From Antedon mediterranea (taxonomy: Eukaryota; Animalia; Echinodermata): a stretch of DNA of 64,000 bases. This document shows positions 14,401 through 49,918 of the stretch, piece by piece. The stretch covers positions 13,720,871 to 13,784,870 of the forward strand of contig NC_092676.1 of the NCBI RefSeq assembly GCF_964355755.1, in the 5' to 3' direction. The notes beneath the pieces were generated by a model, which was not told the origin of the DNA, ran no database searches, and saw nothing but the letters and a program-made list of their open reading frames with translations. Within the stretch, counting starts at the first letter, position 1; each line of letters begins with the position of its first letter. The position numbers and the translations under genes are program-made.

Positions 14401-17400
14401 AAAAATAGAAAGACAATTAATGCAGCAACTATACAACGTCAGGCTAGGTATATAGCTAGCGTACGATGTTCGTACGTTACCGATGTTTACCAGCTAGGCC
14501 TACAAAACTAAGCCTAGCTAGGCTAGGCCTGAGATCGTCCACGAGAGGTCGATCGCCGCGAGCTACTTAGGTAGTGCATTGTTTCTCACTTTTTATCATA
14601 ATTTACCATAAAACGTACATTTAAGACAAGGAATGACATGGTTTAATGTTTTTAAAGTGATATATATGTATTATTTTCCAAAAAACGTCCAAAATTGCAG
14701 GGAAGGGGTCTTTAATAGAATTGATTAATTGTACTATAAAATGTTTACATATATTGTTCATAAGAATAAACATGAGATTGGTTGACAAAAAATAAAAACA
14801 TTAAACTGCCATTTTTATTGCTTTTGTCCAGACATAATTAAAACATTGAACTAAATTACAATGTAGGCCAAACAATCCTTCACAAGTCGATGCCTCCCGA
14901 ATTCTTTCTATTTAATACTGTAGTGGTTTTTTAATCATATTGATGCAAATTTTTATTTTGTATTTGTATGAGTAACACTTCGTTCTGGCTGTGATAAAGG
15001 TTTTTGATTATTCTATTTGTTTATTTGTATTTTAATTTTTCTTTTATTTATTTATTTTTTGTCTTTTGTGAGATACACTCACCTTTATTTCCATTTCTCT
15101 ACATTTAAAGAGAAAAACAAAACCAACATTTCTTTGCAACCGAAATTGCTGTTTTTGTTTCTTTTCTTATATGTTTTTTGTTATATAAGTTTCATTCTTA
15201 CAATAATAAAATAAATATGTACATATAAATATACATTGTATTTTATTGAGATACTCACAGCATTGTGATTTTTCAGTAATTCAGATTTTGGATTTGTATA
15301 TTTGCTTCAGAGAATTCCAAATAAACAATACATCAACACCACCTCACAGTTGAATTCAAAATAATGTGAAACCAAAACTTTTGAAAAATAGTATGCACAA
15401 CTAATAGATAATTGAAGGATAATTAAATGTTGATATAGTAAGTAATATCTACTGTATATATGTTAATAATGGTTCTTTAATACAATAGTACTTTAGAAAC
15501 AAAAAAAGTAAACTCAAGATACATTTTCAATGCTACTCAAAGGAATACATAGCTTTATAAATTAGACAATTTAAAATTTTCATCACAACACTAGTATAAA
15601 TTTATGCGAGCATTTCAAAATTTCCAAAAATTGTCCATGTACCATGGTCGGTATGTAGCGTAGATAGACCATTTTTGGACTTTATTTGATTTCTTCACAC
15701 CTTCCATAATAAATTACATCTATTCAATAAAGTCACATCTTTGATTCAACAAACAAAGATTATGCTATTATGACCTGAAGAAAATAGTGCTGAATTCTGT
15801 CTATTTTGTGTAATAGTATATACAGTATACACAGTATATACTGTATACAGTATATACTGTGCTACAGTATAGCATAGGTGAAATTATGGGACCCACCTTT
15901 TATTCTAATTTTTAACATGATACCGTCATCAAGATTACAATTTCGGAAGATAATTGTCTGAGCAACAACATATTAAAGTGTTAAAGAAATTTGGATACAG
16001 TATGTAGAATCATGATGCATGTTCTTTTAAATGTGATGAACTGTGACGCAAAAGATGAAAATCCGACTTTTTTACTTCAACTATAGCCATATGATGATGT
16101 CTCGGCAACCGATAGGCTAAATTTTTACATAAATTTCTAACTACAATTCAACATGAATATCACTTTCAACTTGGAGGAGCTATAAGCCATGGAAAAATAC
16201 TGTAATGATGAAATTAAGTAATAATACAAGTTAATATTCAAATTTTTGGACATTATGACGTCATCAAAATATTTGTAACTTATACAAAAGATAATTCATT
16301 GAGCAAAAAATAGACATGATTGACAATATTTTGTAACTTTTTAATTGTTTATTTCAAAGTGTTTGTTTGTGTTTGTTAAAGTGGAAATGGTCTCATTTAA
16401 AAAAAAATTACTAACAAAGGCTGGAAAAAAATATTCCAAGAGAGAAAAATATTTTTCACACTCTGGGTGCACTGTACGCATAATAAAGTTTGCGTGTGGG
16501 AATTTTTGACATGCGCGATATTGTTGTATGTGGTGGAATGGAGGGGTTTTTTAATGAAAAAAAAGAGAGACAATGGAAAAAGATAAAAGAGAGAGAAGGA
16601 GTGCTATGTTGAGCAAGGAAAGGGTAGGAGAAAATTTATATGGGAAACTAAGGAGTACAGGAGCTGCAGCCTGAAGGAATTAGAGTAAAAGAAATAGTGA
16701 GTTGGAAATATTAGTATAAGGATGAACTTGAAAATATGGATTCTTGCAAGGTTGCATAACATTATCGAGAAATATTTTAACTTTTATCTTTCCTAATTTA
16801 TTTATATGTATATAAGTTTCGGAGACGGGAGAATACAAGAAGTAACAATATTGTGGACTTTGATTACATACTCATTAATTTATTATTCTAGGGTATGTAA
16901 ATGTACTTCTTGGGGGTTTTCTGGGCTGTGTTTGATAATACGGACTTTACAAAGCAGGACGGTAGGAGAGGACGACGCACATCGTGTGTTCGCTAGAGCG
17001 TTAAAGTCATATACAGTCGACATAGCTGTTTTATTTGTTAGGCACCCTTGCGCAAAGACGACGACTGGCAGTTTCTCTCTCCCTTCTCTCTGTCTCGCGG
17101 CGCGGCCCTTCTAATGGCTTGGTACTGGTTATTAAGCAAATAAGCCTTCCTAGCAGGGGCCTCACATTCAAACGCCGGGCAAAGTGTATTGCTTTTAACA
17201 CAGCCATTTTAACCCAATAAAAATGTTATTTCGTTAAACAATTAAATTAGAAGTTCAAATATTATTTAGAGTTTTGAAAATTCCATGTTTAAGTGTAATT
17301 TGAACTGTATTTTAAGATTATATGTAAATTATTTCTAGTCGTTCTCCGTAAACGGGAAAATGGCAACTTTATCGTCCTCAAAAAGTTAAGACGACAGAAT

Positions 17401-20400
17401 TTCATGCTAAGCTCCGCATAAATTATTCATGAGCACCGTCCTGTGGCTTCCAGTCGTGTTTTGTAAAGTCCCAAATAAGAAAATAAGTAAATATTTTGGA
17501 AGATTGGGGATTTATAGAAATTGGGCTTGTTGGGGGTTGATTATTGCTTGGAAATTGGGTTGGGTTTTTTTTTTGCAGGATTCAGAAAGAAAATTATTAT
17601 TTTGCCAAACGTTATATTAAATTTACTATTATATATAATTGAGAGTTGTGACTATTTTCCTTTTTCACCGATGGTTCAAATAATTTATATGTCCGAATGA
17701 GTTGTAGTTGCGGCTGTATGACAGACAGAAAGAAAGAATAATACAGAAAAAAGGGATAGGCTAAGTGCGGATAACTAAAAAATTGTCAATTAAAACAAGT
17801 TTATTCACCTGTTTCAGGCCTTTTCTGAACAAGTGATCAACGATCATCCAAATCTCTTTTGGAATATCAAATCTTTGAGTGTTATTGCTTTCACTCGATC
17901 CTTGTTCCTAAAATAAGAGAAATATAAGTATTGATTAACAAGAGAAAGACTGTTAAAAACATTTTAGAATCAATATAATTTTCGAATGGAATGATATAAC
18001 TAGATTTTAACTCGTCATTTTAACTCGTCACTTTGAAGAGTTAGTTATCAGCACGACAAACCCCATATGCACATCATATGACCTGAAGAATATATGTTAG
18101 TGCTAAATTCTGTCTATTTTGTGTGATATAGTATATGCAGTATACATGCTTTATACTGTATACATACTACATACAGTGTAGCATGTGAAAATATGGGACT
18201 CACCTTTGATTCTAATTTTTAACATGATGACGTCATCAAAATGAAACACAAAGATAGCAATTTCGGAAGAAAATAATTTGAGCAACAACATATTAAAACT
18301 GTTCAAGAAATTTGGATACGTATATTATAGATGCGACGTGCTCTTTTAAATGTGATGAACTATGACGCAAAAGATGAAAATCTGACTTTTTAAATTCAAC
18401 TGGCCATATGACATCACAACATCCGATTGGCAACATTTTTACATGAATTCGTATCTACAATTCAACAGCTTCCAGAAAACGTTTTAATCATGAGTATCAC
18501 TTTTTATTCGACGAGTTTTAACATATTGAAATTTACTGTAAATATGAAAATAAGTGACGCACGTTGTTCAAATTTTTTGACCTTATGACATGATCAACAT
18601 TAAAATATTTGTAACTCATGGGGAAGATAATTGATTGACAATATTAAAATCTGGGGGTAAATAAAATATGAAAAAGCAAGATGTGCTCTATTAAATGACC
18701 TATGACAAAAGAGACAAAAATACTATATTTTATATTCGGGTGGCCATATGACGTCGTCAAAACAAGAGGTAAATATTCTGCATGAATTCATATCTACAAC
18801 GTATCTGGTCTAAAAAATATAATTCAAGTGAAAAAACAACAATACGTCGTGCGAAATATGGCATGATTCGTATAAAAAGTTCATTAGAAATTAATTTTGC
18901 GCATTTTCAAATTTAAAATGTGCATGGATGCGTAACTTTGTGTACTAAACGCCATTTAACTTTTACTAAGTTAAAAAATAATGTTTTTTTTATCATAAAG
19001 TACATGTAATGATTCACCACTACAATGTTATTTTGTAATTATTAATCAATACAATTAAGCAACTGTCAGTAATAAAGTTTATTTGTATAATTATGTGTTT
19101 AAAGAGCACCCACACTCACAGTAAGAAATTTGAGCTTCAAATGGCGATAAAAAATGGTTTATGTATTTATTGTCAAAAGGATTTAAGTTTATCCCCCAAT
19201 AATTATACTGGGAGACTGAGAGATTAGAATGTTCCATTCATCGCCAAGCAATACGTTTTTAAAAACGTATATTAAATCTATCAAAATAGTATTTTTTAAA
19301 GAATATCGGCTTGTCTTCAACATTATGATGCTGTACTCGAGCTGTTTAACCAATTTTCAGCTATTAAAATCAATTATCGTAGAAGGAGATAGGTAAATGC
19401 GAAGCATCCTCATATTATTGTATGCGGATATTTTTCACCAACAACATCCATTAGACAGTGTATAGCATGATCGGAAAACACCCCTGTTTGGGGCAAATCG
19501 TTGAACCTCAATTCATTTTAATCGTCAATAACTAATTATCTCACTCAACTTAATTAGTAAACAGGGTTACATAAGGTGGTTAAAATCAGTGCCGAACATA
19601 TGAACCAACTATATATACCATCGAGTAAAAATTCTAGAAGTAACGCGATTGACCAAATTTATATATAGATGTTTGGCAAGAGTGGGAAGACCAGAAAAAG
19701 TGTAGCACTGACATGGCCACCTATGAAGGCAAGACAAGAGTGGGAAGACCAGAAAAAGTGCAGCACTGACATGGACACCTATGAAGACAAGAGTGGAAAG
19801 ACCAGAAAAAGAGTAGCACTGACATGGCCACCTATGAAGGCAAGACAAGAGTGGGAAGACCAGATAAAGTGCAGCACTGACATGGGCACCTATGAAGACA
19901 AGAGTGGAAAGACCAGAACAAGGGTGTACTGACATGAGCAGATAAGGAAGTATGGAGGACAGAAGTAATGGGTCCTATTCTGCACAGAGAGATAATGAGA
20001 TATAAAATTAAAGCTAAAAATATACTTACCAATGCAATAACATCTTTTGGATCCATGTCTCTTATTGGGCAATGCATCTTCGTAAGTGCTTCTATAGAAG
20101 CACCAAAGCAGCTTGGGATGTAATTGCCATTTATTGTGATGTGTTAATTGGTTAAGGTTTAACATTTATAATTATTGATTTTAGACTGAATAGTTAAACA
20201 ATTTTACAGTGCAAACAGCACAGAAAGTTATTCTTTACCCAAGCTGTGTAGTTTTATTTCATTTCAAACTAGAAAGGCACTCCGAGAGAGCACACCTTCA
20301 CCTACTGTAAAATTCTCCTACATAAGATTTCTCCAGAAATATATATATATATATTTTGTTGTGTTTGTCTAAAATGCTGTGTGTGATTTAGGCTAATTTC

Positions 20401-23400
20401 ACTACAAGCATGTGTATGCGAGTTTGGTGTAGGTTATGCAAACCAGCCTTTCACCTAACAGTTTCAGTTGACTAACAATAGAAGAGGAACGCCAAAAACA
20501 CTAAAAAGTGGTCAAGAATTGGGACCATGGTTCGGATTGCCTCCAGAATTTAATGGAGTGGTCCTTGACCACATATCTATCTGTATTTTCATTTTGCTAA
20601 TCTATCTAACAAACAGACAAACAGGCACATGTGATCGATTACATACCTCCTTGGCGGAGGTAAATTAGAGAAAAATTACAAAACTATACAAAATACCAAG
20701 GATTGTCAAAGGGACCTTAATCACTTTCACTAACTTTCCTCTAACAGAAATACAAATATAAATACAAACTAGATTTGAACTATGGACGAGTTAGGTTATC
20801 CGCCGCGCAGAAGCCATGTGCACGTCATACACTAGGATATTGTGCACAAAAAAACGATTATGCCATTGTAACCTGAAGAAAATAAATTGTTAGTGTGCTA
20901 TAACATATTTAAATTTACTGAAATGATGAAAATAAGTGACCAAGGTTATTCACCCTTTTGAACATGATGACGTCATAAGATAAAAATATTTTTAATTAGT
21001 TAAACAGTTGATTGACCTAGATAATATCAAAATCTGGGGGGAAATGGAATACGAATAAGTGGAGATGCGCTCTATCAAATGTGATGAGCTATGACGAAAG
21101 AGACAAAAATCTTTTATATTCGGGTGGCCATACGATGACGTCACAATGTTCGGTTAGCCATATTGATGCATGATCCGATATCTGCATCTCATCAACTTCC
21201 AGAATATGTAATACAAATAACTTTCACCATTTAGTTTAGAAACTACGACAGTTTAAAAAAAAGCATAATTTTGACGAATTTTTGAACTTTTTCATAAAAA
21301 AACGCATGAAAATTGTCCATTTCGATGTGCTTGTATGGCATTTTTAACATGCTCAAAAGGACAAGAAACGCGTAGAAAGTTGATTAGAAATTGTTTTTCG
21401 CATTTTCAACATTTGTGTGTGTGTGCGCGTAACTTTCTGTGGAACATTACATTTTTTTTCAATATAAAGTTAGCGCATGATATAAATTTAACTTTTGCTA
21501 TAAAGTTTCAGTTAAAAATGTTATTTGGTTTTCGACCTATGTTAAATACGTGTAATTCATAAAATCGCGCGCAAGTCATGTTGCGCAATTGTAAACGTCA
21601 TGAAAATTTTGCACAACTTCATGTGAATGACGATATGTTGAGAAAGTTACGAAATGTTATGTTTGTAAGTTTTAAAGACACAAAAATTACAGAAAGAAAG
21701 AAGAATAAAAAAAACTAGAATTTAATTCCTCACTTTGACGAATTATAGGTGATCATTTTTATCATTTTAATGAAATTAACATTTTTTAAATATGCACGTA
21801 CGTTAACATACGATCGTAAAAAGCTGATGTACGCCATCCTATGACATGATGCATATACACTTATAGTGCTGAGTTGTACCTATTATGTGTCATATACAAT
21901 ATGCACAGTATATACTGTATATCTATATACAGTGTAGCATAGGTGAAATTACGGGACCCACATCATGTTCAAATTTTTTGGTATGATGGAATTATCAAAA
22001 TAAACTCGAAGATGACAATTTCGAAAGATAATGAATTGAGAAAATAAATATAAGGATTGGAAGAGAATTTGACACGCAGAAGCGCAATGCACGCTCTTTG
22101 AAATTTGTATAACTTCGACTAAAGAAATTTAAAAACAACGTTTTAACTTCAACTGGCCATATAACATCACAACATCCGATAGGCTTAATTTTTATATGAA
22201 TTCAAATCTACATTTCATCAGCTTTCATAATAAGTTATAATCTTCAAGGTCACCTTTAATTCTGAAGAGCTATAAGATATTCAAATGTATGGTGTAGCTG
22301 AAATTACACGACCTAGGTTATTCAAGTTTTTCCGCGTGATGACGTCATCAAAATAAAAATGTTGACAACTCATGAGAAAGATAATTATTTGAGCCAAGCA
22401 CATACTAAAATTTCTGCGAAAATCGGGCTCAAATAACGGAGAGGCGCTCTATTGAATGTGAAAACTTACACAAAAAGAAAAAAATTACTAATTTTTAAAT
22501 TGAAGTGGCCATTTGATGACGTCATACCATTTTGTACGTCTAATGTGTACATGAATATGTATCTACAACCCAATGGCTTCCCGAATAAGTTAAAAAAAAT
22601 TGGGGGTCACCTGCCATTCTGAAGAGTTATATTCATTTTAAAAAGGTCTTATTTTTCACCATTTTCATCACTTTGATGCAATTAATTTGCGCATTTTGTC
22701 ATTTTTAACCTGCTCGTATAGCGTTATTTTAAGTCGGAACTGACTCAAGTTTGGTGAATGTACTAAGGATGGTGAGTAGAATGAGATTTGTTAAAAAAAT
22801 TCATATTTTTTACGCTTTTTAAGTATCGCGCGCGCAAAATTTTTTTTTCCGCAGTAATTTTTTGAAACACGCAAATGGCCTAATTCATGCTCTAAATTGA
22901 TAAAAACTTAATTTTGAGCGTTTTAAATTTTTAACGCGCGATTTCACGCGCATGACCCTACGTGCGCGTGCGTTTCTATTTTCTAATATTTTTACCCTTG
23001 ACCTGAAGTTTACGTGTAGTGAATTTCATTAATATGTGATAATGAATTATGGAGATATGATTGATAATGTGATTTTGCAAAATGGCGTATAAATGACGTC
23101 ACGGATGAGTGATCACGCTGGAAAGCTTATTAGGATTAAGTTATATTATTTGAAAGATATTCTGAAATTTTGGTAATCATTGACATTAAACTTTTTGAGA
23201 TAATTGTTACACAAAATAGTGTACAGAAACAATAAAAAGACTAGACATGAAACTCGTCACTTTGACGAGTTAGTTATCCGCACCACGACAAACGCCACGT
23301 GCACGTCATACGTTGGAATATTGCACACAGAAAAAGATTATGGCATTATGACAAGAACTGAAGAATATGATATGCTGTTAGTGCTGAATTCTGTCAATTT

Positions 23401-26400
23401 TGTGTCATATAGTATATACATGCAAACAGTATAATCTGTATACATATTACATACAGTGTAGAATAGGTGAAATTACGGGACCCGCCATTTATTCCTATTT
23501 TTAACATGGCGACGGTATCAAAATGAAACACTTAGATAGCAATTTCAGAATGAAATTATCTCAGGAACAACATATTAACGTGTAGAAGAAATTTGAATAC
23601 GTAAAATATAGATGCGCACCCTTTTAAATGTGATGAACTATTACGCAAAATATGAAAATACGACTTTTTTTATTCAACTGGCCATATGATGACGTCACAA
23701 TCTGCGATTGGCAAAATGTTTACATGATTTCGTATCTACAATCCAATAGCTTCCAGAAAACATTTTAATCGTGATTATCACATTTTATTCTTACGAGCTA
23801 TAACAGATTAAAATTTACTGTAAAGATGAAATTAATGCCACACGTAATTTAAAATTTTAGGCATGATGACGTTACAAATATTAAAATATTTTTAACTCAT
23901 GCGAAAGGTAGTTGATTGACCTAGACAATATTAAAATCTTGGAGAAAATGGAATACGGATAAGCGTGATGCGCTCCATTGAATGTGATGAGCAATAACGA
24001 AAGAGACAAAAATCCTATATTTTATATTCGTGTGGCCATACGATGACGTCAAAATGTCCTGTTAGCCATATTAATGTATGATTTGATATCTACAACTCAT
24101 CAACTTCCAGAATATGTAATAAAAATAACTTTCACCGTTTAGTTTAGAAACTACGACTGTTTAAAAAAAGGCATAATTTTGACGATTTTTTTAGCTTTTT
24201 GATCAAAAACGCGCGTAAATTTTCCAATTCGACGTGCTCGTATGACGTAATTTAAAGTCACAAATGGTTTTAAAATGGTAAAATTACTCTAGAAGGCTGG
24301 AAAAACATAATTCATGAGAAAAAAAGATGTTTTTCACGGTACGTGGCCACCGCGCGCGTAAAAAAATGCGTGCACGTGGGAATTTTTGACATGCGCGAAA
24401 TGTCATGAGTCGTGTAAAAAGTTGATTAAAAATTAATTTTACGCATTTTGAAACTTTAAATGCGCGTGCGCGCGTAACTTCTTGTAAAACATGCCATTTT
24501 TAATCAATAAAAAGTTTGCACTTGATATGACTTAAATTTTCACAAAGTGTCAAAACTAAATTATGCTTGGTTTTTAGTCTATGAGCAATCATAAAAAATC
24601 ATAAAATCGCGCGTAAGTCACGTTGCGCAACTCTGACGTCATTCAAAAATAGGAGGTGCACAACTTCACGTAAATGCCCATATGTTGACAAAGTTATGAA
24701 ATGTTATGTTTACCCATTTTAGAGATACGCTCTGCACAAAAAGTGAGGGAGAAAGACAGAAGAATAATATAAAATTGAAACAGGACGATTACAAGGAGTT
24801 ATCCGCTACTAAGCGGATAACTAACTAGACATGTAACTCGTCACTTTGACGAGTTTGGTTATCCGCCGCGCAAGTGGTGCAACATTAACATTAAGGGGAT
24901 AGGTTGAGGACAAAAGGAAGTGTTCACGTTGGCATTATGACCTGAACTGAAGAATATGATATGTTGTTATTGCTGAATTTTATTATTTAAATTCATATAT
25001 AGTATACACAGTATAATCTGTATCCATATCACATACAGTGTAGAATAGGTGAAATTACGGGACCCGCTATTTATTGCAATTTTTAACATGTTGACGGTTT
25101 TAAAATGAAACGCGAAGGTAGCAATTCCGAAAGGAAATTATCTCAGCAACAACGTATTAGCGTGTAGAAGAAATTTGAATACATGAAATATTGATGCGCG
25201 CTCTTTTAAATGTAATGAATTATGACGCAAAAGATGAAAATACGACCTTTTTTATTTAACTGGCCATATGATGACGTCACAACATCCGATTGGCATCATT
25301 TTTTCATAATTTCGTATCTACAATCCAATAGCTTCCAGAAAAAGTTTTAATCGTGATTATCACATTTTATTCTTACGAGCTATAACAGATTAAGATTTAC
25401 TGTAAAGATGAAATTAATGCCACACGTGATTTAAATTTTTAGGCATGATGACGTCAAAAAATTAAAATATTTTCAACTCATGCGAAAGATAGTTGATTGA
25501 CCTAGACAATATCAAAATCGGGGTGAAAATGGAAAACGGATAAGTTGAGATGCGCTCTATTCAATGTGATGAGCTATGACGAAAGATACAAAAATCCTAA
25601 ATTTTATATTCGCGTGGCCAGACGATGATGTCACAATGTCCAGTTAGCCATATTAATACCTGATCCGATATCTACAACTCATCTACTTCCAGAATATGCC
25701 ATCCACAAAAAGTTGACCGTCTAGTTTAGAAATTACGACTGTTTAAAAAAAGGCATATTTTAAACGAATTTTTTAACCTTTTCATAAAAAACGCGCGCAA
25801 ATTGTCCAATTCGACGTGCTCGTATGAGGTATCTTTTAGTCGAAATTGTTAAAAATTTGGTAAAATTACTAGAAAAGGCTGGAAAAATATAAATCACGCG
25901 AAAAAAATACGTTTTCAATGCTACGTGCGTACCGCACACGTAAAAATCTGCGCACGCGTGGGAATTTTTGACATGCTTAAAACAACATGGAACGCGTAGA
26001 AAGTTGATTTTAAATTAATTTTGCGCATTTTGAAATTTTAAATGCGCGTGCGCGCGTAACTTTGTGTAAAACACGCAATTTTTTTTCAACAGAAAGTTAG
26101 CGCATGATATAAATTAAACTTTTGCAAAGTTTCAAGTTGAAATGTTATTTGGTTGTCGAGCTATGTTAAATACGACAAAATCGTTAAATCGCGTGTAAGT
26201 CACGTTGCGCAATTGTAAACCTCATGAAAAGCTTCGCTGCACATCTTCATGTGCATGACGATATGTTGAGAAAGTTACAAAATGTTATGTTTGCAAGTTT
26301 TAGAGAAAAGCGTTCCACAAAAATCATACAGAAAGAAAGAAGAACTAGATTTGAACTCGTCACTTTGACGAGTTCGGGTTATCCGCGCAAACGTAACATG

Positions 26401-29400
26401 CACAAACTTAACCATATGAACCTCGACAATTATTATTCCATCCTATGACATGAAATAAATATGTTTACAGTGCTGAATTGTACCTATTTTGTAGCATACA
26501 TCATTACAGTATTTACAGAATACGCTGTATATGTTATATACAGTGTAGCATAGACGATATTACGAGACCCATCTTTGAAATCCAATTATTAACACGATGA
26601 CGTCATCAAATTGACGTATAAAGATAACAATTTTAGAAGATAAGTATCTAAATAATTACATTAATACAAATTTTAAGAAATTTAAATCCGTAAAATATAG
26701 ATGCGCGCTCTTTTAAATGTGATGAACTATGACGCAAAATATGAAAATACGACTTTTTGTATTCAACTGGCCATATAATGACGTCACAACATCTAATTGC
26801 CAAAATATTCACATGAATCTGTATCTACAATCCAATAGCTTCCAGAAAACGTTTTAATCATGATGATCCCTTTTTATTCTGACGAGCTATAAAAGATTGA
26901 AATTTACTGTAAAGATGAAAATAGGTTACCCACGTTATTTACATTTTAAACATGATGACGTCATAAAAATTAAAATATTTTTAACTCATGCGAAAGATAG
27001 TTGTTGACCTAGACAGTATTAAAATATCTTAGGAAATGGAATACGTATAAGCGATATGCGCTCTATTTAATGTAATGAGCAATAGCGAAACAGTCAAAAA
27101 TCCAATATTTTACATTCGTGTGGCCATACGATGACGTCATAACATCCGAGGGGTAAAGATTCTGCATGAATTCATATCTACAACATATCTGCTTACATAT
27201 TAAATTAAAAAAATTGGGGGTAACGGTTGATCCTGAGGAGCTATAATAGATTCAAAGTAGGCATAATTTTGACAATATTTTGTCACTTTTGCAACTAAAA
27301 GGCACGCAAATTGTCTAAATCAACGTGTTCGTATGACGTCATTTTAATTTGAAATGATGTAAATCTTTTTTAAAATGACTAAGAAAGGCTGTAAAATCAT
27401 TATTCAAGAAAAAACACATGATTTTCATGCTCCGTGCGCACCTTACGCGTAATTTTTTTCGCGCGCGTGGGAATTTTTGACATGCTAAAAATGTCATGAT
27501 CAGCGTAGAAAGTTGATTAGAAATTAATTTTGCGCATTTTGAAATTTTAAATGCGCGTGCGCGCGTAACTTCTTGTGAAACATGTCATTTTTAATCAATA
27601 GAAAGTTTGCCCTTGATATGACTTAAATTTTCACCAAGTGTCAATACAAAACGACTTTTGGTTTATAATCTATGACGAATCATTGAAATTCATAAAATCG
27701 CGCGTAACTTACGCTGCGCAACTCACGCTGCGCAACTCTAACGTCATATAACAAAGTTTCTTGCACATCTACAGCTGCAGGTTAATCTTTTGACAAAGTT
27801 ATACAATCTTATGTTGACAAGGATGAGAGATATGCGACGCACAAAAATCCGGGAAAGAAAGAAGAATAACAAAGAAGATGAAAAAAAAGATATTTACAAT
27901 CACAAGGGTTATCCGCAACTTCTAAGTTGCGGATAACCAACTAGACATGTAACTCGTCACTTTGACGAGTTTGGTTATCCGCCGCGCCGCGCAAGTGGTG
28001 CAACATTAACATTAAGGGGATAGGTTGAGGACAAAAGGAAGTGTTCACGTTGGCATTATGACCTGAACTGAAGAATATGATATGTTGTTATTGCTGAATT
28101 TTATTATTTAAATTCATATATAGTATACACAGTATAATCTGTATCTATCACATACAGTGACATGCATAGAATAGGTGAAATTACGGGACCCGCTATTTAT
28201 TGCAATTTTTAACATGTTTACGGTTTTAAAATGAAACGCGAAGGTAGCAATTCCGAAAGGAAATTATCTCAGCAACAACGTATTAGCGTGTAGAAGAAAT
28301 TTGAATACGTGAAATATTGATGCGCGCTCTTTTAAATGTAATGAATTATGACGCAAAAGATGAAAATACGACCTTTTTTATTTAACTGGCCATATGATGA
28401 CGTCACAACATCCGATTGGCAACATTTTTACATAATTTCGTATCTACAATCCAATAGCTTCCAGAAAAAGTTTTAATCGTGATTATCACATTTTATTCTT
28501 ACGAGCTATAACAGATTAAAATTTACTGTAAAGATGAAATTAATGCCACACGTGATTTACATTTTTAGGCATGATGACGTCAAAAAAATTAAAATATTTT
28601 TAACTCATGCGAAAGATACTTGATTGACCTAGACAATATCAAAATTGGGGTGAAAATGGAAAACGGATAAGTGGAGATGCGCTCTATTCAATGTGATGAG
28701 CTATGACGAAAGATACAAAAATCCTAAATTTTATATTCGTGTGGCCATACGATGACGTCACAATGTCCGGTTAGCCATATTAATACCTGATCCGATATCT
28801 ACAACTCATCTACTTCCAGAATATGCCATCCACAAAAAGTTGACCGTCTAGTTTAGAAATTACGACTGTTTAAAAAAAGGCATATTTTAAACGAATTTTT
28901 TAACCTTTTCATAAAAAACGCGCGCAAATTGTCCAATTCGACGTGCTCGTATGACGTATCTTTAAGTCGAAATTGTTTAAAATTTGGTAAAATTACTAGA
29001 AAAGGCTGGAAAAATATAAATCACGCGAAAAAAATACGTTTTCAATGCTACGTGCGTACCGCAAACGTAAAAATCTGCGCACGCGTGGGAATTTTTGACA
29101 TGCTTAAAACAACATGGAACGCGTAGAAAGTTGATTTTAAATTAATTTTGCGCATTTTGAAATTTTAAATTTGCGTGCGCGCGTAACTTTGTGTAAAACA
29201 CACAATTTTTTTTCAACAGAAAGTTAGCGCATGATATAAATTAAACTTTTGCAAAGTTTCAAGTTGAAATGTTATTTGGTTGTCGAGCTATGTTAAATAC
29301 GACAAAATCGTTAAATCGCGCGTAAGTCACGTTGCGCAATTGTAAACATCATGAAAAGCTTCGCTGCACATCTTCATGTGCATGACGATATGTTGAGAAA

Positions 29401-32400
29401 GTTACAAAATGTTATGTTTCGAGTTTTAGAGAAAAGCGTTCCACAAAAATCATACAGAAAGAAAGAAGAACTAGACATGAAACTCGTCACTTTGACGAGT
29501 TAGTTATCCGCACAACAAACGCCACGCGCACGTCATACGTTGGAATTTTGCACACGGAAAAAGATTATGACATTATGACCTGAACTGAAGAATATCATAT
29601 GCTGTTAGTGCTGAATTCTGTCAATTTTGTGTCATATAGTATATACAGTGCAAACGGTATAATCTGTATACATGTTACATACAGTGTAGAATAGGTGAAA
29701 TTACGGGTCCCCCCGTTTATACTTATTTTTAACACGGCTTCGGTATCAAAATGAAACACTAAGATAGCAATTTCGGAAGGAAATTATCTCAGCAACAACA
29801 TATTAACGTGTGGAAGAAATTTGAATACGTAAAATATAGATGCGCGCCCTTTTAAATGTGATGAACTATTACGCAAAATATGAAAATACGACTTTTTTTA
29901 TTCAACTGGCCATATGATGACGTCACAACATCCGATTGGCAAAATGTTTACATGAATTCGTATCTACAATCCAATAGCTTCCTGAAAACGTTTTAATCAT
30001 GATTATCACGTTTTATTCTGACGAGCTATAACAGATTGAAATTTACTGTAAAGATGAAAATAAGTGACCCACGTTATTTTCATTTTCAGACATGATGACG
30101 TCATAACAATTAAAATATTTTAACTCATGCGAAAGATAGTTGATTGACCTAGATAATATAAAAATCGGGGTGAAAATGGAAAACAGATAATTGGAGATGC
30201 GCTCTATTAAATGTGATGAGCTATGATGAAAGATACAAAAATTCTATTTTTTATATTCGCATGGCCATACGATGTCGTCACAATGTCCGGTAAGCCGTAT
30301 TGATGCATGATACATGATCAACAACTCATCATCTTCCAAAATACGTAATAAAAATAACTTTTACCGTTTAGTTTAGAAACTACGACTGTTTAAAAAAAGG
30401 TATAATTTTGACAAATTTTGACAAATTTTTGAACTTTTTCATAAAAAACGCACATAAATTATCCAATTCGACGTGCCCGTATGACGTAATTTGAAGTCGA
30501 AATTGTTTAAAAGTTGGTAAAATTACTAGAAAAGGCTGAAAAAACATAAATCACGCGAAAAAATCTGTTTTTAACGGTACGTGTGCTCCGCGCGCGTAAA
30601 AATTTGCGCGCGCCTGGGAATTTTTGACATGCTCAAAATGACATTAAACGCGTAGAAAGTTGATTAGAAATTAATTTTGAGCATTTTGAAATTTTAAATG
30701 CGCGTACGCGCGTAACTTTTGGTAAACCAAGCATTTTTTTTTCAACAAAAAGTTAGCGCATGATTTAAATTAAACTTTTGCAAAGTTTCAATTTAAAATG
30801 TTATTTGGTTTTTGACCTATGTTAAATAGGTGAAATTCATAAAATCGCGCGTAAGTCATGTTGCGCAACTCTGACATAATTCAAAAATAGGAGGTGCACA
30901 ACTTCACGTGAATGCCCTCATGCTGACAAAGTTATAACATGTTATGTTTACAAGTTTTTGAGATACGTGAGACACAAAAATGGGGGAGAAGGAAAGAAAA
31001 ACTAGACATGAAACTCGTCACTTTGACGAGTTAGTTATCCGCACGACAAACGCCACATGCACGCCATACGTTGGAATATTGCACACGGAAAAAGATTATG
31101 GCATTATGACCTGAACTGAAGACTATAATATGTTGTTATTGCTGAATTCTATTATTTTGATTCATATATAGTATACACAGTGTAATCTGTATACATATCA
31201 CATCAGGGAAAATTTTCATTTAAAAATTTTGTTTAGCAATATTGCTAATAAAACTGATTTTTAAGTCGAGAAACATAGTTTTGTATTGTATTTTTTGCTA
31301 CACAATTTTCAAAATGTGTAGCAATGAGGTTGTTTTGTATAGCTTTTTGCTACGCTACACTGGCGAAAATGTTCTCTGCACATACAGTGTATGTAGAATA
31401 GGGGAAATTACGGGACCCGCTATTTATTGCAATTTTTAACATGTTGATGGTTTTAAAATGAAACGCGAAGGTAGCAATTTTGGAAGAAAATTATCTCAGC
31501 AACAACATATTAACGTGTAGAAGAAATTTGAATAGGTGAAATATTAATGCGCGATCTTTTAAATGTAATGAACTATGACGCAAAATATGAAAATACGACT
31601 TTTTTTATTTAACTGGCCATATGATGACGTCACCACATCTGATTGGCAAAATTTTCACATGATTTTGTATCTACAATCCAATAGCTTCAAGAAAACGTTT
31701 TAATCGTGATTATCACATTTTATTCTTACGAGCTATAACAGATTGAAATTTACTGTAAAGATGAAATTAATGCCACACGTAATTTAAATTTTTAGGCATG
31801 ATGACGTCATAAAAATTAAAATATTTTTAACTCATGCTAAAGATAGTTGATTGACCTAAACAATATCAAAATCGGGGTGAAAATAGAAAACGGATAAGTG
31901 GAGATGCGCTCTATTAAATGTGAGGAGTTATGACGAAAGATACAAAAATCCTAAATTTCATATTCGCGTGGCCATACGATGACGTCACAATGACCGGTTA
32001 GCCATATTAATGCATGATCCAATATCTACAACTCATCTACTTCTAGAATATGTCATCCACAAAAATTTGACCGTCTAGTTTAGAAATTACGACTGTTTAA
32101 AAAAAGGCATATTTTAAACGAATTTTTTAACCTTTTCATAAAAAACGCGCGCAAATTGTCCAATTCGACGTGCTCGTATGACGTATCTTTAAGTCGAAAT
32201 TGTTTAAAATTTGGTAAAATGACTAGAAAAGGCTGGAAAAACATAAATCACGCGAAAAAAATACGTTTTCAATGCTACGTGCCAACCGCACACGTAAAAA
32301 TGTGCGCACGCGTGGGAATTTTTGACATGCTTAAAACAACATGAAACGCGTAGAAAGTTGATTATAAATTAATTTTGCGCATTTTGAAATTTTAAATGCG

Positions 32401-35400
32401 CGTGCGCGCGTAACTTCTTGTAAAACATGCCATTTTTAATCCACAAAAAGTTTGCGCTTGATATGACTTAAAATTTCACAAAGTGTCAAAACAAAATTAT
32501 GCTTGGTTTTTAGTCTATGAGCAATCATAAAAAATCATAAAATCGCGCGTAAGTCACGTTGCGCAACTCTGACATCATTCAAAAATAGGAGGTGCACAAC
32601 TTCACGTAAATGCCCATATGTTGACAAATTTATGAAATGTTATGTTTACCCATTTTAGAGATACGCTCTGCACAAAAAGTGAGGGAGAAAGACAGAAGAA
32701 TAATATAAAATTGAAACAGGACGATTACAAGGAGTTATCCGCTACTAAGCGGATAACTAAAAAAAGTAACAGGACAGTTACAAGGAGTTCCGCTCAATGC
32801 GGATAACTAATAAAAAGTTGATGTTGATGATTTCGTACAATCACAAGAGGTTATCCTGCATGTAACTCGTCACTTTGACGAGTTTGGTTATCCGCCGCGC
32901 AAGTGGTGCAACATTAACATTAAGGGGATAGGTTGAGGACAAAAGGAAGTGTTCACGTTGGCATTATGACCTGAACTGAAGAATATGATATGTTGTTATT
33001 GCTGAATTTTATTATTTAAATTCATATATAGTATATACACAGTATAATCTGTATCCATATAACATACAGTGTAGAATAGGTGAAATTACGGGACCCGCTA
33101 TTTTTAACATGTTGACGGTTTTAAAATGAAACGCGAAGGTAGCAATTCCGAAAGGAAATTATCTCAGCAACAACGTATTAGCGTGTAGAAGAAATTTGAA
33201 TACGTGAAATATTGATGCGCGCTCTTTTAAATGTAATGAATTATGACGCAAAAGATGAAAATACGACCTTTTTTATTTAACTGGCCATATGATGACGTCA
33301 CAACATCCGATTGGCAACATTTTTACATAATTTCGTATCTACAATCCAATAGCTTCCAGAAAAAATTGTAATCGTGATTATCACATTTTATTCTTACGAG
33401 CTATAACAGATTAAAATTTACTGTAAAGATGAAATTAATGCCACACGTGATTTAAATTTTTAGGCATGATGACGTCAAAAAAATTAAAATATTTTTGACT
33501 CATGCGAAAGATACTTGATTGACCTAGACAAAATCAAAATCGGGGTGAAAATGGAAAACGGATAAGTGGAGATGCGCTCTATTCAATGTGATAAGCTATG
33601 ACGAAAGATACAAAAATCCTAAATTTTATATTCGCGTGGCCATACGATGACGTCACAATGTCCGGTTAGCCATATTAATACCTGATCCGATATCTACAAC
33701 TCATCTACTTCCAGAATATGCCATCCACAAAAAGTTGACCGTCTAGTTTAGAAATTACGACTGTTTAAAAAAAGGCATATTTTAAACGAATTTTTTAACC
33801 TTTTCATAAAAAACGCGCGCAAATTGTCCAATTCGACGTGCTCGTATGACGTATCTTTAAGTCGAAATTGTTTAAAATTTGGTAAAATTACTAGAAAAGG
33901 CTGGAAAAACATAAATCACGCGAAAAAAATACGTTTTCAATGCTACGTGCGCACCGCACACGTAAAAATGTGCGCACGCGTGGGAATTTTTGACATGCTT
34001 AAAACGACATGAAACGCGTAGAAAGTTGATTATGAATTAATTTTGCGCATTTTGAAATTTTAAATGCGCGTGCGCGCGTAACTTTGTGTAAAACACGCAA
34101 TTTTTTTTCAACAGAAAGTTAGCGCATGATATAAATTAAACTTTTGCAAAGTTTCACTTTAAAATGTTATTTGGTTTTCGACATATGTTAAATACGAGAA
34201 AATCGTTAAATCGCGCGTACGTCACATTGCGCGATTGTAAACATCATGAAAAGCTTCGCTTGACGACGTTACATAAATGTCAAAATGTTAACATAGTTAA
34301 CAAAATGTTATGTTTGCAAGTTTTAGAGAAAAGCGTTACACAAAAATCATACAGAAAGAAAGAAGATGAAAAAAAAGATGATGATTTCGTACAATCACAA
34401 GAGGTTATCCTGCAACTTTGTTGCGGATAACCAAAAATAAAAAGTTGATGTTGATGATGATTTCGTACAATCACAAGAGGTTATCCTGCAACTTCGTTGC
34501 GGATAACCAAAAAAAATAAAGATTTCATACAATAACAATAGGTGATCATTTTATTCTAAATGATCACCTAAAAAAAGATCTTACACAATCACAAGGGTTA
34601 TCCTGCAACTTCATTGCAGATAACCAATAAATAATTTAACATTAATTAAATAAATACAAATATGATAAAATTGAATTAGTTTAATGACCAAGTTCAATAT
34701 ATATTTCCCAAGTAAAATAACTTCATCAAACTTTCAGGGCACACATAATATTATTTAATTTTTTTAAAGAGAATAAAATAAAATATCAATAGAATTATCT
34801 ATAAAAACAAATGAATTATACAATTTGGGATATCTACAAATAAACCTCTGTTTAGAAGCATTGACTCGGGAAAATTGAACATTAGACATTTTATATTTAT
34901 TTGGTATCAAGCACAATCTTGCCAGGAGCAAACAATAGAAATAGGCCTGAACAGATTTAACCACTCTTGCTCCAACAATAATAATAATAACTTACATTTT
35001 CTTTTGGACTTAGTAAATATTGATCCTATGATGACATTTTAAATTTAACTTAAGAGAAATAAAACGCTACAATAAAAGAATAGAGATAATAAGAATAAAG
35101 GTCTAACATAAAAAATGGACATTTGCCCCCTGAGCTTTTCTTAATGAGTTTCTAAAGCAAAAAATCACACACAAAGGATATATAGTAGTCCTTTCCATTT
35201 TCTAGATGTAAAACTAAGATGTCTTCAATTTTGTCATCACCAGAGTTTAGAGCTGCTGCAGTGTTTTTGTCAACAAGTATTCGAACTGTTAATTCAATTA
35301 GATCCCCTTCAAAAGTTAAACATGAATAATTTATTTAATTCTGCTTAAAAATCTAAACATTAATTTTGAAAAGTTTATGTTTTAAAAGTCTAGCGATCTT

Positions 35401-38400
35401 TTTATCTTTATTTTATTCTTCCAAATGTAATTATGTTGCTAAAATATTAATAGATTCATTTATGAAACTATTAGAAGAATAATGTGCTGTAGTGTAATTA
35501 AATATTTAAGGAGTTTTAATAATACATATTAATAATTTATTAAATTTATTCGACAAGATATTTTAAATTCAAAAATTAAATCGTTACCTGGAAGAAAATA
35601 TGCTTCTGAAGGTTCTACTTTCAACCATGGTTTACAGAAATGTTTATCATCCAGTTTATTAACAAACTTAAAATGAACACCTGTCTGTCCTGTGTTAGCG
35701 AGGCTTACTTTCTTCTCCCTTGGATCCATGAACTTTACATCCTTAAATTCCAGCTTATTAAAAAAAATGATCAAACTGATTATTAAATAGGACTTTAAGG
35801 GGAAGGGAAAAATAATAAAAAGAAAATGTTAAAAACCAAAAATTCCAAAAATGTCAAACAAATATTTTGTCAAATTATTTTCATTTTTCCTTCCATATAC
35901 AAGTCTGTTCTTGATGCATTCAATGCCTTCAGCCAAACTAGCTCAATCACTCTTCCTGCTTATTAATTAGTATCCTAAAGTAATATATGCATTTTTTTAT
36001 ATAATTTCAAGAGAAATGGGATTAAAAATCAGGTACGACGAATGAATTACATCTAACTAAAAATCCAAAAACACCCATTCAAAACACATTCACAATGTCA
36101 ATGGCATGTGTTATTCTAAAAGCTAATTAATGAATGCATGGATTGATTAATGATGCAGTTGTACCTGGTTATTTTCAAGAGTTACTTGTGGTAAGGCCTC
36201 ATTCTCTACTCTATCCTGGTTACGTATTTCTTCTTCTACAACATCTCTGTATTTTTTCTCATCGATAACTTTTACCTACGTAAATATAAGAATATTAAAC
36301 GTGAATAGAAGATGAAAGAATCTACAATAAATTTATTTAAGGGCAAAATTTGGTAAATTTTTACCACGCAATGAAACCCTGTTTAAGTTTTAAATATTAT
36401 TTTTTTAGCTAGGATATACGTTTAATCAGCCAGGCCTAACGTTGGTCGGAATCGTTGTGGGACTAGGGCCTAGGCCTATGGAAACTGATGATTATTGATA
36501 TATTACAAAACAGGTTTGTTGAGTGAAACTTTGTCACTTAGTGAAATACTGATACGATTTGCATTAGACTTCTTATTCAAAATAACGCCATTATTTTTTA
36601 TTCAGATAATAAATCATCATGCCAATTCCAAAAAAAATGTGCAAATACTTCGGCCTAGCTAGCACGGCTGTTATACACAGTGTGCCATGCCATTGCTATG
36701 TGCTAACTGTAATACTGGAGTCAGTTGCATGTTTCGAGAGGTACCGTTTCGACAGCCGTACATAACCAGATTAGTTACTTTCAATTAGGACAACATTTAC
36801 GGTTCAGACTGAATATGTGGCACGAACAAGCCAAACCAGTCACTTGTCGGTAATCCCCGAAATGAGATACAGCCTAGAATAGGTAAAATCATGTTGACAA
36901 AAAAAACATTTTTTAAAATATTTTAATCGATTAAATCTAACCTTTATGTATTCTAGAATCATACTGTGTTTTTTTTTTAATTTTTCAACTAAAACAAGTA
37001 AAAAAATACATTTTGTAAGGCTATGTTTTTGTAAGATGTCGAAAATTTTTCGCCTGTAGAATTGTCTACTCAAAAGATTTGTATGCCGCCATTTTCTAAG
37101 CGAAATCTGGCTTGTTTACTATAAATATATAATAATAATAATAAGCTAATTTAAAGAGGTGTATTTCTATTGGACAATGACTTCAGTTGTTCAATGATAA
37201 TGACTTTTAGTGATATAAACAAAAATTATAATATAACGACGAACATCGTATCCGGTGCTGTAATTGGTAAATTGTGCTCACATGGCCTTAAAGCTCATGA
37301 CTGCTGCGCATGCACAAAGTGTCGTAGCTGTCAAAAATCCATCCACGTGTGCAGTGGTTCGGAGGAGGAAGCAGGACACAACGCGAGAGCAGCTGTGTAT
37401 ACTTACTTTACTGAGATTTTGCATGTTACAAGAGCAATATAAAAACAAAATAATCCCGGAATTTTATTACCATCCGATAACTAGAAAAATAATGTGTTAT
37501 CCGTGTCCTCTTGTCCGTTGCTGCGTTCATTCAGCCTCGCTGTTCAAAGAAGGCCACCACGGCCCAGCATCGCGTCAGTAAATTTTGAATGGACATTTCT
37601 CCGAAAAAACATAATCCAGAGAGTTCTAACACATACATGTTTTAAATTTCACATAACTTTGTAAGTAAAAGTCGGACTACAATAATTTGTTACCATTATA
37701 AAACACATAATTAGCTGCATATGATAAGATGATATTATCTCCAAATTAAATATTTACGCCATGCGACTGATCTGGCTTGTCCCTGCCACATATAATATCC
37801 AAATTTGTAGTACATACCAATTAAATTAACCTTTCTATTGGATTCCATAAAAAAACCTGAACTCGGTGTTTGCCATTCAAAGTGTTAATGTCTTCACCCT
37901 TGATAGACTTGATGGATACATATACAGTAAAGTAGTAATAGAATTATAATATTATAGTCATTTTTAAGCTGTGAATAAAGGAATAAATTTACCACAATTT
38001 CAAAGTTACTGCTGACTGGTTTGTGATCACTTAGTTTTAGTTCTTTGTTGTATTTGTAATCTAGTTGACGTATGTCACGACTGTTAACGCCTCGGTATAG
38101 AATCCGGTCACACCATGCTGGAGCTCTTTGCTTCTCACTTAAATAAACAAAATCAGGTTACATTATATTATACTTTCCAGATAAAAGCAAGAACGCTACT
38201 TATGGTAAGGTAGGCTTTACTTTTTATAAATGGAAACTTTTGGCAAATTAACACAAATACATGTAAACCTTGTAACCCTGGTAAAGTTTTAATACTAAGC
38301 TTAGAAAAATATTTGGGACTAGTTTTCACTATGTACATCCATTTTGAATAAGAATTGCATACTTTTTTCTAGTAAACTTTAAATGGAAATAAAGTGATTG

Positions 38401-44889: not shown

Positions 44890-45890
44890 TACGGATGAGT
44901 TCTGTTGGGTTCATTTATTTGTTATACAGTATATTTCTATACAGTAATTTTATAAGCATCTGCAATTCCGGTTTTACTACTCTGCTAGTGACGAATACTA
45001 CGAAGCCTTTCACATTAGTTACCAATTTAGAACGCCAGGATGTTCGGTTGGAGGCGAGAGTTTCCCCAAGAACCAGTGGGAATATTAAAAGAAAACAGAT
45101 TACACTTAATAACATCTTTAAAACAGAGTTTTGGACGTCCGCGTGGACGAGGTGAGTCAGCCAGTTCAGCCAATATTTTTTGGTAGACGGTAATCTTCCA
45201 GCCGAATAACATGACCAGACCAGCGTAAGCGCCGTTTTCTAAGCATCGTAAAAATATCAGTTGTACCAGTAATTGACAACACAGCACTTGGGTACACGAT
45301 CACACCAAGAAACACCCAAGATAGAGTGCAGACAGCAATAGTGAAAAGAGTTTAGTCTTTTCTCCTGATGACGATACGTGGTCCAGGACTCTGAGCAATA
45401 TAACAGGACACTTAGCACACATGCAATGTAGATGTGAGTCTTCAATTTGATGGTAAGGTTATGGTTGTTCTATACACGAGCATGAAGTTGTCCAAAAGTT
45501 GTTGCTGCTTTCCCAATACGTGTACCAAGCTCAACATCTAGTGAGTTTTGTGTCACTTAGTGTAGAACCGAGATAGGTGAATTTCCTTACAACTTCTAAG
45601 GGTTTACCATAAATTAAAATGTTAGGTGGTTCTTAATCTGCGCCCTGAGCCAGGATTACTGTTTTGCCGTCTGAGCAGGCCTGTGAAAAGGAGCTGCAAG
45701 ATGCCTGTAATTCAGATTGGGAGTGGGCAACAATGGCAGCACCGTCCGCATACAGGAGTTCATACACAAGAACTTGCTTAATCTTTGTCTTCACACGGAG
45801 TCTAGCAAGTTAAAAAAAACACCTGTGCTTCGAGAGTGCAGCATGATACCAGAATGCTCTGGAAAAGCATATTTGAGAAAAACAGAAAGG
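44890..45890 (-). mobile_element. RTE-clade LINE, degenerate RT C-terminal part
   Basis: ELLYADG, IYIACVLSVLLYCSESWT, RPRGRPKLCFKD; frameshifts. Confidence 0.85.
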
Positions 45891-49410: not shown

Positions 49411-49414
49411 ATGT

Positions 49415-49918
49415 CTGTGTCTGTAGCGTAAATAGAGCTGAAGTGCTCCATCCATCATTTAAGTTGATCTGCAGCTTCGGTGAGCATAACACCATCATTT
49501 GAAAGAAGTGGTGTGTTCACATGAAGAGCTGCTAGTAATGTTTCAGCATTTTCAATGAACCAATCTGGCTGCCTACGTGAACATTGTCCAAAAACACTAA
49601 GAGCAATATCTTTGAGTGCTAAACGAAGCCGGGACCACGCAGATATTGGACTACTACTACTAGGCCTAGTTGTTACAAAGTGACCATTAAGAAGGTTTTG
49701 AAACTTGTCGATGTTTAGCTGTTTTTTTGTAGAAGCAACATCAATTGTAGGAACATGCTTTGGTTTGGCAGTGTGATATCTATTTGGTGAAAGTTTGCAT
49801 CCCACAAGAGCATGATCAGAGTTGCAGTCAGCAGACTTTAAGCTACGGCAAATGATTACCTCACATAGCCGACGTCTAACAATATTATGGTCAAGTTGAT
49901 GCCAGCGGCGAGAAATTG
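49415..49918 (-). mobile_element. RTE-clade LINE fragment (end of endonuclease plus linker)
   Basis: SADCNSDHALVGCKL and QPDWFIEN motifs. Confidence 0.7.

What the first reader, a model, noticed from the sequence alone, without database searches (positions are those of the whole stretch)
20769..34625. Six-deep last-in-first-out stack of self-targeting Helentron-like elements
Seen: nine co-oriented elements. E3, E5, E8 and E9 carry their own 5' cap. E1, E2, E4, E6 and E7 break off in their (GAA)n microsatellite, where the next element's CTAG end begins. Exactly five orphan caps follow, at about 32761-32810, 32811-32860, 34440-34508, 34520-34570 and 34575-34625. They close the open bodies in reverse order with matching subfamily. 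The caggac..ttacaaggag cap fits E7. The two tttcgtacaatcacaagagg caps fit E6 and E4. The only AGGTGATC cap fits the only AGGTGATC body (E2). The last cap falls to E1 by elimination. The parse is E1[E2[E3,E4[E5,E6[E7[E8]],E9]]]. Known: Helentron-associated elements such as DINE-1 have sub-terminal inverted repeats, a 3' hairpin and a microsatellite, and insert at TT without TSDs. Inference: each element carries a landing pad for its relatives, giving an orientation-locked safe-harbour system whose layout records insertion order. I do not know of a description of such balanced stacks, but cannot check the literature here.
Basis: partly seen in the sequence, partly recalled or inferred. Interest (0 to 1): 0.9.

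Follow-up and report, generated by a model that had tools for sequence, protein, structure and literature searches.

The report
Helitron2-type transposons nested six deep
Nine small protein-less elements of the rolling-circle transposon type lie nested six deep, all facing one way, in one intron of an OCRL/INPP5B gene, likely because each new copy lands in a T-rich tract that its relatives carry near one end; such self-insertion was proposed before for fungi and maize, and here the nested intermediate is preserved.

Summary
The parse is real. Five bodies break in their A/GAA-rich tract and five orphan 5' caps follow in reverse order. That pairing ranks 2 of 120 by subfamily typing (first is the swap of two same-type caps) and ties 3rd-4th of 120 by a distance test. 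E4 plus its cap rejoins without duplication to match an intact copy. Three of the joined body-cap types occur multi-copy in public contigs. Corrections: the second cap and E9 are fused by a 27-nt deletion, and sibling order cannot be read. Added here: 5 of 7 breaks lie exactly 29 nt from a conserved body motif, and the stack fills 92% of a 15-kb AT-AC (U12-type) intron of OCRL/INPP5B. The elements are non-autonomous Helitron2/HINE-type. Self-insertion 31-85 nt from the 5' end was proposed for Fusarium Helitron2, and this scan noted similar nests in two other genomes. An adaptive safe harbour is not shown. New variant of a known kind.

The parts
20769..21714 (-). E1 body, outermost; internally deleted, decayed 3' hairpin; broken 36 nt from the CACAAA motif
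21715..23240 (-). E2 body, AGGTGATC subTIR family; broken 31 nt from the motif
23241..24824 (-). E3, complete, AGTTATCCGC subTIR type
24825..26344 (-). E4 body, GGTTATCCGC type; starts head-to-tail at the E3 cap; broken 29 nt from the motif
26345..27940 (-). E5, complete
27941..29470 (-). E6 body, 98.4% identical to E4; starts head-to-tail at the E5 cap; broken 29 nt from the motif
29471..31001 (-). E7 body, AGTTATCCGC type; broken 29 nt from the motif
31002..32760 (-). E8, complete, innermost; mosaic (E3-like ends, E4-like middle); carries an unrelated 180-nt insert at 31199-31378
32761..32810 (-). Orphan cap A, closes E7
   Evidence: 13 of 13 subTIR match; joint 31000>32759 in three runs
32811..32860 (-). 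Orphan cap B, closes E6 (or E4); second hairpin arm deleted
32861..34434 (-). E9, complete except for its terminal CTAG, lost in the same deletion
34435..34510 (-). Orphan cap C, closes E4 (or E6)
   Evidence: rejoined junction matches the intact copy at 54295-55898; joint 26343>34435
34511..34571 (-). Orphan cap D, AGGTGATC hairpin, closes E2
   Evidence: joint 23239>34512 in run X14
34572..34627 (-). Orphan cap Z, closes E1
   Evidence: weakest pairing
20141..35181 (-). Host intron, 15,041 nt, AT-AC ends with ATATCCTTT donor and CCTTAAC branch-like site (U12-type by consensus); 92% of it is the stack
35182..35316 (-). OCRL/INPP5B exon upstream of the intron (its 5' boundary was not fixed)
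   Evidence: matches OCRL chain 2qv2_A residues 69-108, E 7.5e-09
20030..20140 (-). OCRL/INPP5B exon downstream of the intron
   Evidence: matches 2qv2_A residues 110-145, E 1.1e-06

Best explanation
This is a nest of nine non-coding ~1.6-kb elements with Helitron2/HINE-type ends in which five copies are split near their 5' end and their caps are stacked in reverse order, most likely built by repeated insertion of one copy after another by a Rep/Helicase supplied from elsewhere in the genome. Shown: anatomy (5' TT plus hairpin holding the subTIR, T-rich tract, 3' subTIR plus stem-loop, CTAG), co-orientation, reverse cap order, seamless rejoining, a T directly 3' of all eight intact CTAG ends, and breaks clustered 29 nt from a conserved body motif. 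Inferred: a single-strand HUH strand transfer joins the element's 3' end to a T on a T/pyrimidine-rich strand. Each element carries such a tract 50-95 nt inside its 5' end, on its own sense strand, so relatives land there in one orientation and push the host's cap outward. A second preferred site is the junction at a resident copy's end, which gives the exact head-to-tail joins (E3|E4, E5|E6, formerly B|E9). Later mobilisation from an outer cap to the first 3' end would yield multi-cap single-body copies like those at 4892-6712. Self-targeting is most likely a by-product of target preference; a selected safe-harbour role is possible but not shown.
For: Parse and typing. E4+C restores the junction of intact F4 (54295-55898) without duplication. 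Joined body-cap forms exist at many times single-copy depth in public contigs: 26343>34435 at 11,476 in X10 and 2,175 in X11 (flank about 290 and 60); 31000>32759 at 2,336, 486 and 430 in X10, X11 and X14; 23239>34512 at 3,992 in X14 (sides only 24-25 letters). The outer boundaries are bridged by single-copy contigs (20638-21067 and 34551-35523 in X10). 7 of 7 measured breaks lie in the zone; 5 of 7 share offset 29, P 0.0003-0.004 if 8-16 sites were equally likely. Runs of T followed by pyrimidines are strand-biased in the element: 11-22 sites on the sense strand against 0-3 on the other. Two further same-strand nests occur in the window. Two insertions of other classes (LINE at 58285-60400; 180-nt insert in E8) lie elsewhere in the bodies. 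A cap-D-to-cap-D joint occurs at depth 3,564 in X10. The literature model is in PMC5148889.
Against: No long reads, and no listed contig bridges the inner junctions, so a misassembly of the interior is not excluded (no piece spans the stretch). Divergence does not fall with depth: of the 40 differences listed (of 356), E5, E7 and E8 hold 7, 4 and 5, while their hosts E4 and E6 hold none. A joint 21714>32768 (depth 3,717 in X10, 1,503 in X14; 22-letter low-complexity side, 12 letters between) links an E1-like end to an A-type cap, and no E1-to-Z joint is among the 15 shown of 592. In the distance test two other assignments score slightly higher. E8 is a mosaic and shares 99-100% of its cap-proximal 300 nt with E3, so conversion or template switching also acts. 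With TT given to the element, 3 of 8 target sites read A^T rather than T^T. The breaks are not independent samples and the window was chosen for its stack. No autonomous partner was seen.
Confidence: 0.8

Rival explanations
1. The stack was partly assembled elsewhere and moved as composites: multi-cap copies (for example E8 with cap A, or E9 with cap C) arrived ready-made, and the 5-to-5 balance is partly coincidence.
For: Multi-cap single-body copies exist in this window (8 and 2 caps, two alternating cap types) and are reported to transpose in Fusarium (PMC5148889 section 10). Inner copies are not less diverged than their hosts.
Against: Every open body needs its own cap and none is left over. 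Types match in reverse order (2 of 120). E4+C restores an intact junction.
Confidence: 0.1
2. Rolling-circle concatemers, unequal crossing-over or integration of single-element circles by homologous recombination made a tandem array that only looks nested.
For: Exact head-to-tail joins at E3|E4 and E5|E6. E4 and E6 are 98.4% identical and break at the same base. E8 is a mosaic.
Against: Neighbours are of different subfamilies (66-87% identical). Each head-to-tail join links the 3' end of one type to the cap of another, which a single-element circle cannot give. Concatemers would not pile displaced caps at one side.
Confidence: 0.05
3. The interior is a misassembly of a high-copy repeat.
For: The family is very abundant (summed depth about 170,000-820,000 against about 290 on flanks in X10, not a copy number). 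Inner junctions were not verified.
Against: The copies differ by 2-34%. A correct reverse-order, type-matched cap stack up to 13 kb away from the bodies is not what a collapse would build. Outer junctions are bridged by single-copy contigs.
Confidence: 0.05

Closest known systems
Fusarium oxysporum FoHeli (Helitron2) with multiple 5' termini; Chellapan et al. 2016, PMC5148889 (passages and section 10 read) and PMC13342296 (passages read)
   Same: Asymmetric inverted repeats with hairpins at both ends; extra 5' termini of 31-85 nt, explained by self-insertion; up to five 5' termini on one copy.
   Different: In the passages read the multi-terminus copies carry one 3' end and nesting is the inferred precursor. 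Here all five host bodies remain, across several subfamilies, in an animal. FoHeli1/2 end in ATTTT, these in CTAG.
HINE / DINE-1 non-autonomous Helentrons; Thomas et al. 2014, PMC4067079, and oyster Cg_HINE, PMC7492417 (passages read)
   Same: No coding capacity, subTIRs, 5' inverted repeat, microsatellite near the 5' end, 3' stem-loop, T-rich targets, no target duplication.
   Different: Neither set of passages describes insertion into the element's own microsatellite or stacked caps. The 3' end here is CTAG followed by T, as in proto-Helentron, rather than only Ts.
Maize Helitron1 with multiple termini from nesting; PMC3288121 (passages read)
   Same: Nested Helitrons as the source of multiple termini; Helitrons reported to insert preferentially near others.
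   Different: Canonical Helitron1 ends; no microsatellite target or fixed offset in the passages read.
Lepidopteran Helitron-like elements that disrupt (GAAA)n microsatellites; Coates et al. 2010 (title only, seen in reference lists)
   Same: A GAAA-type microsatellite as target.
   Different: By the title the targets are microsatellites in general; the paper was not read.
Paramecium telomeric Helitrons; PMC13085455 (passages read)
   Same: A strand-specific repeat target is proposed to lock orientation.
   Different: The target is the host telomeric repeat, not a tract carried by the element.
Xenopus HelenXT233 with two left termini; PMC11417382 (passages read)
   Same: Two non-identical 5' termini in direct repeat on one HLE2.
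   Different: One autonomous element; no nest described in the passages read.

Membership tests
Non-autonomous Helitron2/HLE2 (HINE) | Asymmetric subterminal inverted repeats of about 11-15 nt | tested here: met
   13 of 13 for E7/A, 12 of 13 for E2/D and E4/C; 10 of 13 for decayed E1/Z
Non-autonomous Helitron2/HLE2 (HINE) | 5' hairpin or inverted repeat that includes the subTIR | tested here: met
   5 of 5 caps folded give z -4.0 to -9.2; cap B not folded (arm deleted)
Non-autonomous Helitron2/HLE2 (HINE) | 3' stem-loop between subTIR and end | tested here: met
   3 of 4 ends folded give z -2.6 to -3.3; E1 has lost it
Non-autonomous Helitron2/HLE2 (HINE) | No target site duplication | tested here: met
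   E4+C matches intact F4 across the junction; tested directly for this junction only
Non-autonomous Helitron2/HLE2 (HINE) | Insertion between T and T | tested here: inconclusive
   T follows CTAG at 8 of 8 sites; 5 of 8 read T^T and 3 of 8 A^T if both 5' Ts belong to the element
Non-autonomous Helitron2/HLE2 (HINE) | No coding capacity | tested here: met
   No stop-free frame of 100 aa or more inside 20769-34627
Helentron in the strict sense | Autonomous partner with Rep/Helicase plus endonuclease sharing these ends | not testable with these tools
   No genome held; no such ORF recognised in the window's ORF list
Canonical Helitron1/HLE1 | 5' TC start, no inverted repeats | tested here: not met
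   Caps begin TT and subTIRs are present; only the 3' CTAG agrees
U12-type AT-AC intron (host) | AT..AC ends, RTATCCTTT donor, CCTTAAC branch consensus (consensus recalled), between contiguous exons | tested here: met
   human and mouse INPP5B are listed with a U12-type intron in PMC1557818 (table passage); whether at the same position was not checked
U12-type AT-AC intron (host) | Spliced in transcripts | not tested
   No RNA reads laid

The most novel reading that the evidence does not exclude
These elements carry a nucleotide-precise landing site for their own transposase: the cut is set about 29 nt from a conserved motif in the element body (or at a resident end), works across subfamilies and subTIR families, and channels new copies into old ones, so that about 14 kb can pile up inside one intron of a conserved gene without touching an exon or splice signal. 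That would be a self-encoded attachment site in a eukaryotic rolling-circle transposon and would give a direct handle on how Helitron2 transposases choose targets.
Probability: 0.25. Interest if true: 0.75.

Novelty: new variant of a known kind. Interest (0 to 1): 0.45.

Why it matters
Target choice by Helitron2/Helentron transposases is described in the papers read only as a preference for TT or T-rich sequence. A preserved nest shows the intermediate that the Fusarium self-insertion model requires and points to a testable rule (fixed offset, strand-locked). It also explains short tandem arrays of 55-75-nt caps that repeat finders would call minisatellites, and shows a way for a roughly 1-kb intron to grow to 15 kb. 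Such nests give a partial insertion order of subfamilies. It is not a new class of element, and this scan has noted the same behaviour in two other genomes.

Tried and rejected
Whole genome: none held, so genome-wide counts, solo-copy searches and divergence from consensus could not be done. Pattern scan of metagenome contigs: 0 matches. Pattern scan of genome contigs: 2 bacterial matches to a 21-mer palindrome (L001, L002), taken as chance and not examined. A junction alignment score was dominated by cap length (cap C won for every body) and was dropped as uninformative. The target-site row for the inner element of the 4259 nest was off by one base and was not counted; two host-site rows of that other family were also left out of the 8-site count. 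The three head-to-tail junctions and the breaks after 63737 were not included in the 7-break offset count. Depth against age: nearest-neighbour identity within the window shows no trend (E1 82.5, E2 89.5, E3 90.1, E4 98.4, E5 93.0, E6 98.4, E9 98.0, E7 87.3, E8 90.1) and is confounded by subfamily sampling. Integration of single-element circles was rejected because the joins cross subfamilies. Literature: ten full-text searches and passage reading of 12 papers found no description of a fully balanced multi-subfamily cap stack; subscription journals are missing from the library and supplements (for example Table S6 of PMC5148889) were not opened and may bear on this. PMC3630058, PMC12001565, PMC11934779 and PMC4344730 (passages read) added nothing on self-insertion.
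Full report
Observation. The region 20769-34627 was read in full and its ends located by script. In element sense (the minus strand) each unit runs: TT, a hairpin that contains the subterminal repeat, a T/pyrimidine-rich tract, about 1.5 kb of non-coding body, the second subterminal repeat, a stem-loop, CTAG. Which end is 5' is assigned by analogy with HINE/Helitron2 anatomy (PMC4067079, PMC5148889; passages read). Nine units are present. E3, E5, E8 and E9 keep their caps. E1, E2, E4, E6 and E7 stop in the tract against the next CTAG. Five orphan caps follow (A, B, C, D, Z). One correction: cap B has lost its second arm and E9 its CTAG, which fits a 27-nt deletion between two CA dinucleotides of a join like E5|E6.

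Is the order more than chance? With bodies typed by their 3' 60 nt and caps by their own sequence, the reverse-order assignment ranks 2 of 120; rank 1 swaps B and C, which are the same subfamily. A distance-matrix test with five intact copies added ranks it tied 3rd-4th of 120 for both body segments used. The two assignments above it give cap D to E1 and cap A to E2, against the subTIR match, and no intact AGGTGATC copy was in that set. Rejoined E2, E4, E6 and E7 are 1580-1596 nt, the length of intact copies. E4 plus C reproduces the junction of the intact copy at 54295-55898 with no duplication. In public contigs the joined forms exist at many times flank depth: E4/E6-type body to cap C (11,476 against about 290 in X10), E7 to cap A (three runs), E2 to cap D (X14) (15 joints shown of 592, sides 20-29 letters). 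Against: a joint linking the E1 end to an A-type cap, on a 22-letter low-complexity side, and no E1-Z joint among those shown. Single-copy contigs bridge the left flank into E1 and caps D-Z into the right flank in X10 and X11 (one sample); inner junctions were not verified.

Target site. All 7 measured breaks (five here, two at 55899 and 57397) fall in the 5' tract, which holds 13-23 of 226-263 TT sites per intact copy. Under a stricter T-rich null the zone's share is 10-41% and the chance of 7 of 7 is at most 0.002. Five of 7 lie exactly 29 nt from a conserved CACAAA motif of the body (others 31 and 36), while cap lengths vary from 50 to 76 nt; P 0.0003-0.004 if 8-16 sites were equally likely. 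These events are few, related and chosen by the window, so this is a lead. T-then-pyrimidine runs are almost confined to the sense strand of the element (11-22 against 0-3), which is enough to explain co-orientation if the target is strand-specific. A T follows all 8 intact CTAG ends in the stack. A second class of site is the exact end of a resident copy (E3|E4, E5|E6, formerly B|E9; also 6009|6010).

Other nests. At 53909-64000, on the other strand, three AGGTGATC bodies are open and six caps of that type are piled at 53909-54294; the window ends before balance can be judged. A different GACA-microsatellite element sits in the same tract at about 62965-63740, in the orientation its end motifs suggest is the same. 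So balance is a property of this stack, not a rule, and the multi-cap single-body form known from Fusarium is present in the same window. A LINE and a 180-nt insert lie elsewhere in bodies.

Order and age. Nesting gives E1 before E2 before E4 before E6 before E7 before E8, but siblings cannot be ordered. E1 is the most decayed, and E1 pieces and cap Z occur at about flank depth also in X14, a run of another study and organism code, a weak hint that E1 is old. Inner copies are not less diverged than their hosts, and E8 is a mosaic, so divergence is no clock here.

Host context. The stack fills 13,859 of the 15,041 nt of one intron (35181-20141, minus strand) between two exons that match consecutive residues of OCRL (69-108 and 110-145 of 2qv2_A); a catalytic-domain exon lies at about 44,000. 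The intron has AT-AC ends, an ATATCCTTT donor and a CCTTAAC site 17 nt from the acceptor, the U12-type consensus as I recall it. Human and mouse INPP5B are listed with a U12-type intron (PMC1557818, table passage).

Mechanism. Shown: anatomy, order, rejoining, strand bias, clustering. Inferred: a Rep/Helicase in trans copies the element as a single strand and joins it before a T on a T-rich strand; the element's own tract and ends are preferred targets; remobilisation from an outer cap yields multi-cap copies. The simplest reading is a by-product of target preference. A selected safe harbour would need a genome-wide excess over matched sites and evidence that the tract is conserved for this.

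Prior art. Chellapan et al. (PMC5148889; passages and section 10) report 5' termini of 31-85 nt repeated on Helitron2 copies and propose self-insertion. PMC13342296 (passages) finds up to five. PMC3288121 (passages) derives multiple termini from nested maize Helitrons. PMC11417382 (passages) shows two left termini on a Xenopus HLE2. PMC13085455 (passages) proposes orientation locking by a strand-specific repeat target. A 2010 paper on insertion into (GAAA)n was seen by title only. Ten searches found no account of a balanced multi-subfamily stack or a fixed offset; supplements were not opened. Two earlier notes of this scan describe like nests in other genomes; searches by sequence and place found none.

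Verdict. Real, well parsed, a clear animal example of Helitron2 self-insertion with the intermediate intact and a possible nucleotide-level targeting rule. New variant of a known kind; interest 0.45.

Noticed in passing
window 20141-35181 (-): The host intron is AT-AC with U12-type signals in an OCRL/INPP5B gene and is inflated from about 1.2 kb to 15 kb by the stack.
   Followed up: partly
window 53909-64000: Second nest on the opposite strand: six AGGTGATC caps, three visible open bodies, intact E3- and E4-type copies, a deletion fusing an E5-type piece to an E2-type body at about 60480, and a LINE (RT frame 58666-59772) inside one body; it runs off the window.
   Followed up: partly
window 4259-6776: Third nest, other family: an outer copy holds two inner bodies with 8 and 2 caps (58-74 nt, two alternating types), the multi-5'-terminus form; a solo relative of the outer family lies at 20269-20664.
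   Followed up: partly
window 20269-20664: A contig of run X14 matches the flank to 20267 and then has 39 unmatched letters, a hint that this element is absent or different there.
   Followed up: no
window 31199-31378: 180-nt insert in E8 with short imperfect terminal inverted repeats and a 5-nt direct repeat at its sides (read by eye), likely a small cut-and-paste element.
   Followed up: no
window 62961-63740 and 1-363: GACA-microsatellite element of another family inserted in the tract of an E2-type body; a 94% identical copy lies at the start of the window.
   Followed up: partly
window 45806-49502 (+): Broken Gypsy-like LTR retrotransposon frames (gag zinc knuckle, protease, RT, RNase H, integrase by motif reading).
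   Followed up: no
window 820-1700 (+): Degraded frames that look Penelope-like (RT and GIY-YIG-type motifs read by eye); not tested.
   Followed up: no
window 12139-12687, 15749-16521, 17700-17778, 18001-18957: Decayed solo fragments of the same superfamily; together with the nests the superfamily covers about 36% of the window.
   Followed up: partly
window 19677-19936: 58/111-nt tandem repeat just beyond the downstream exon, unexplained.
   Followed up: no
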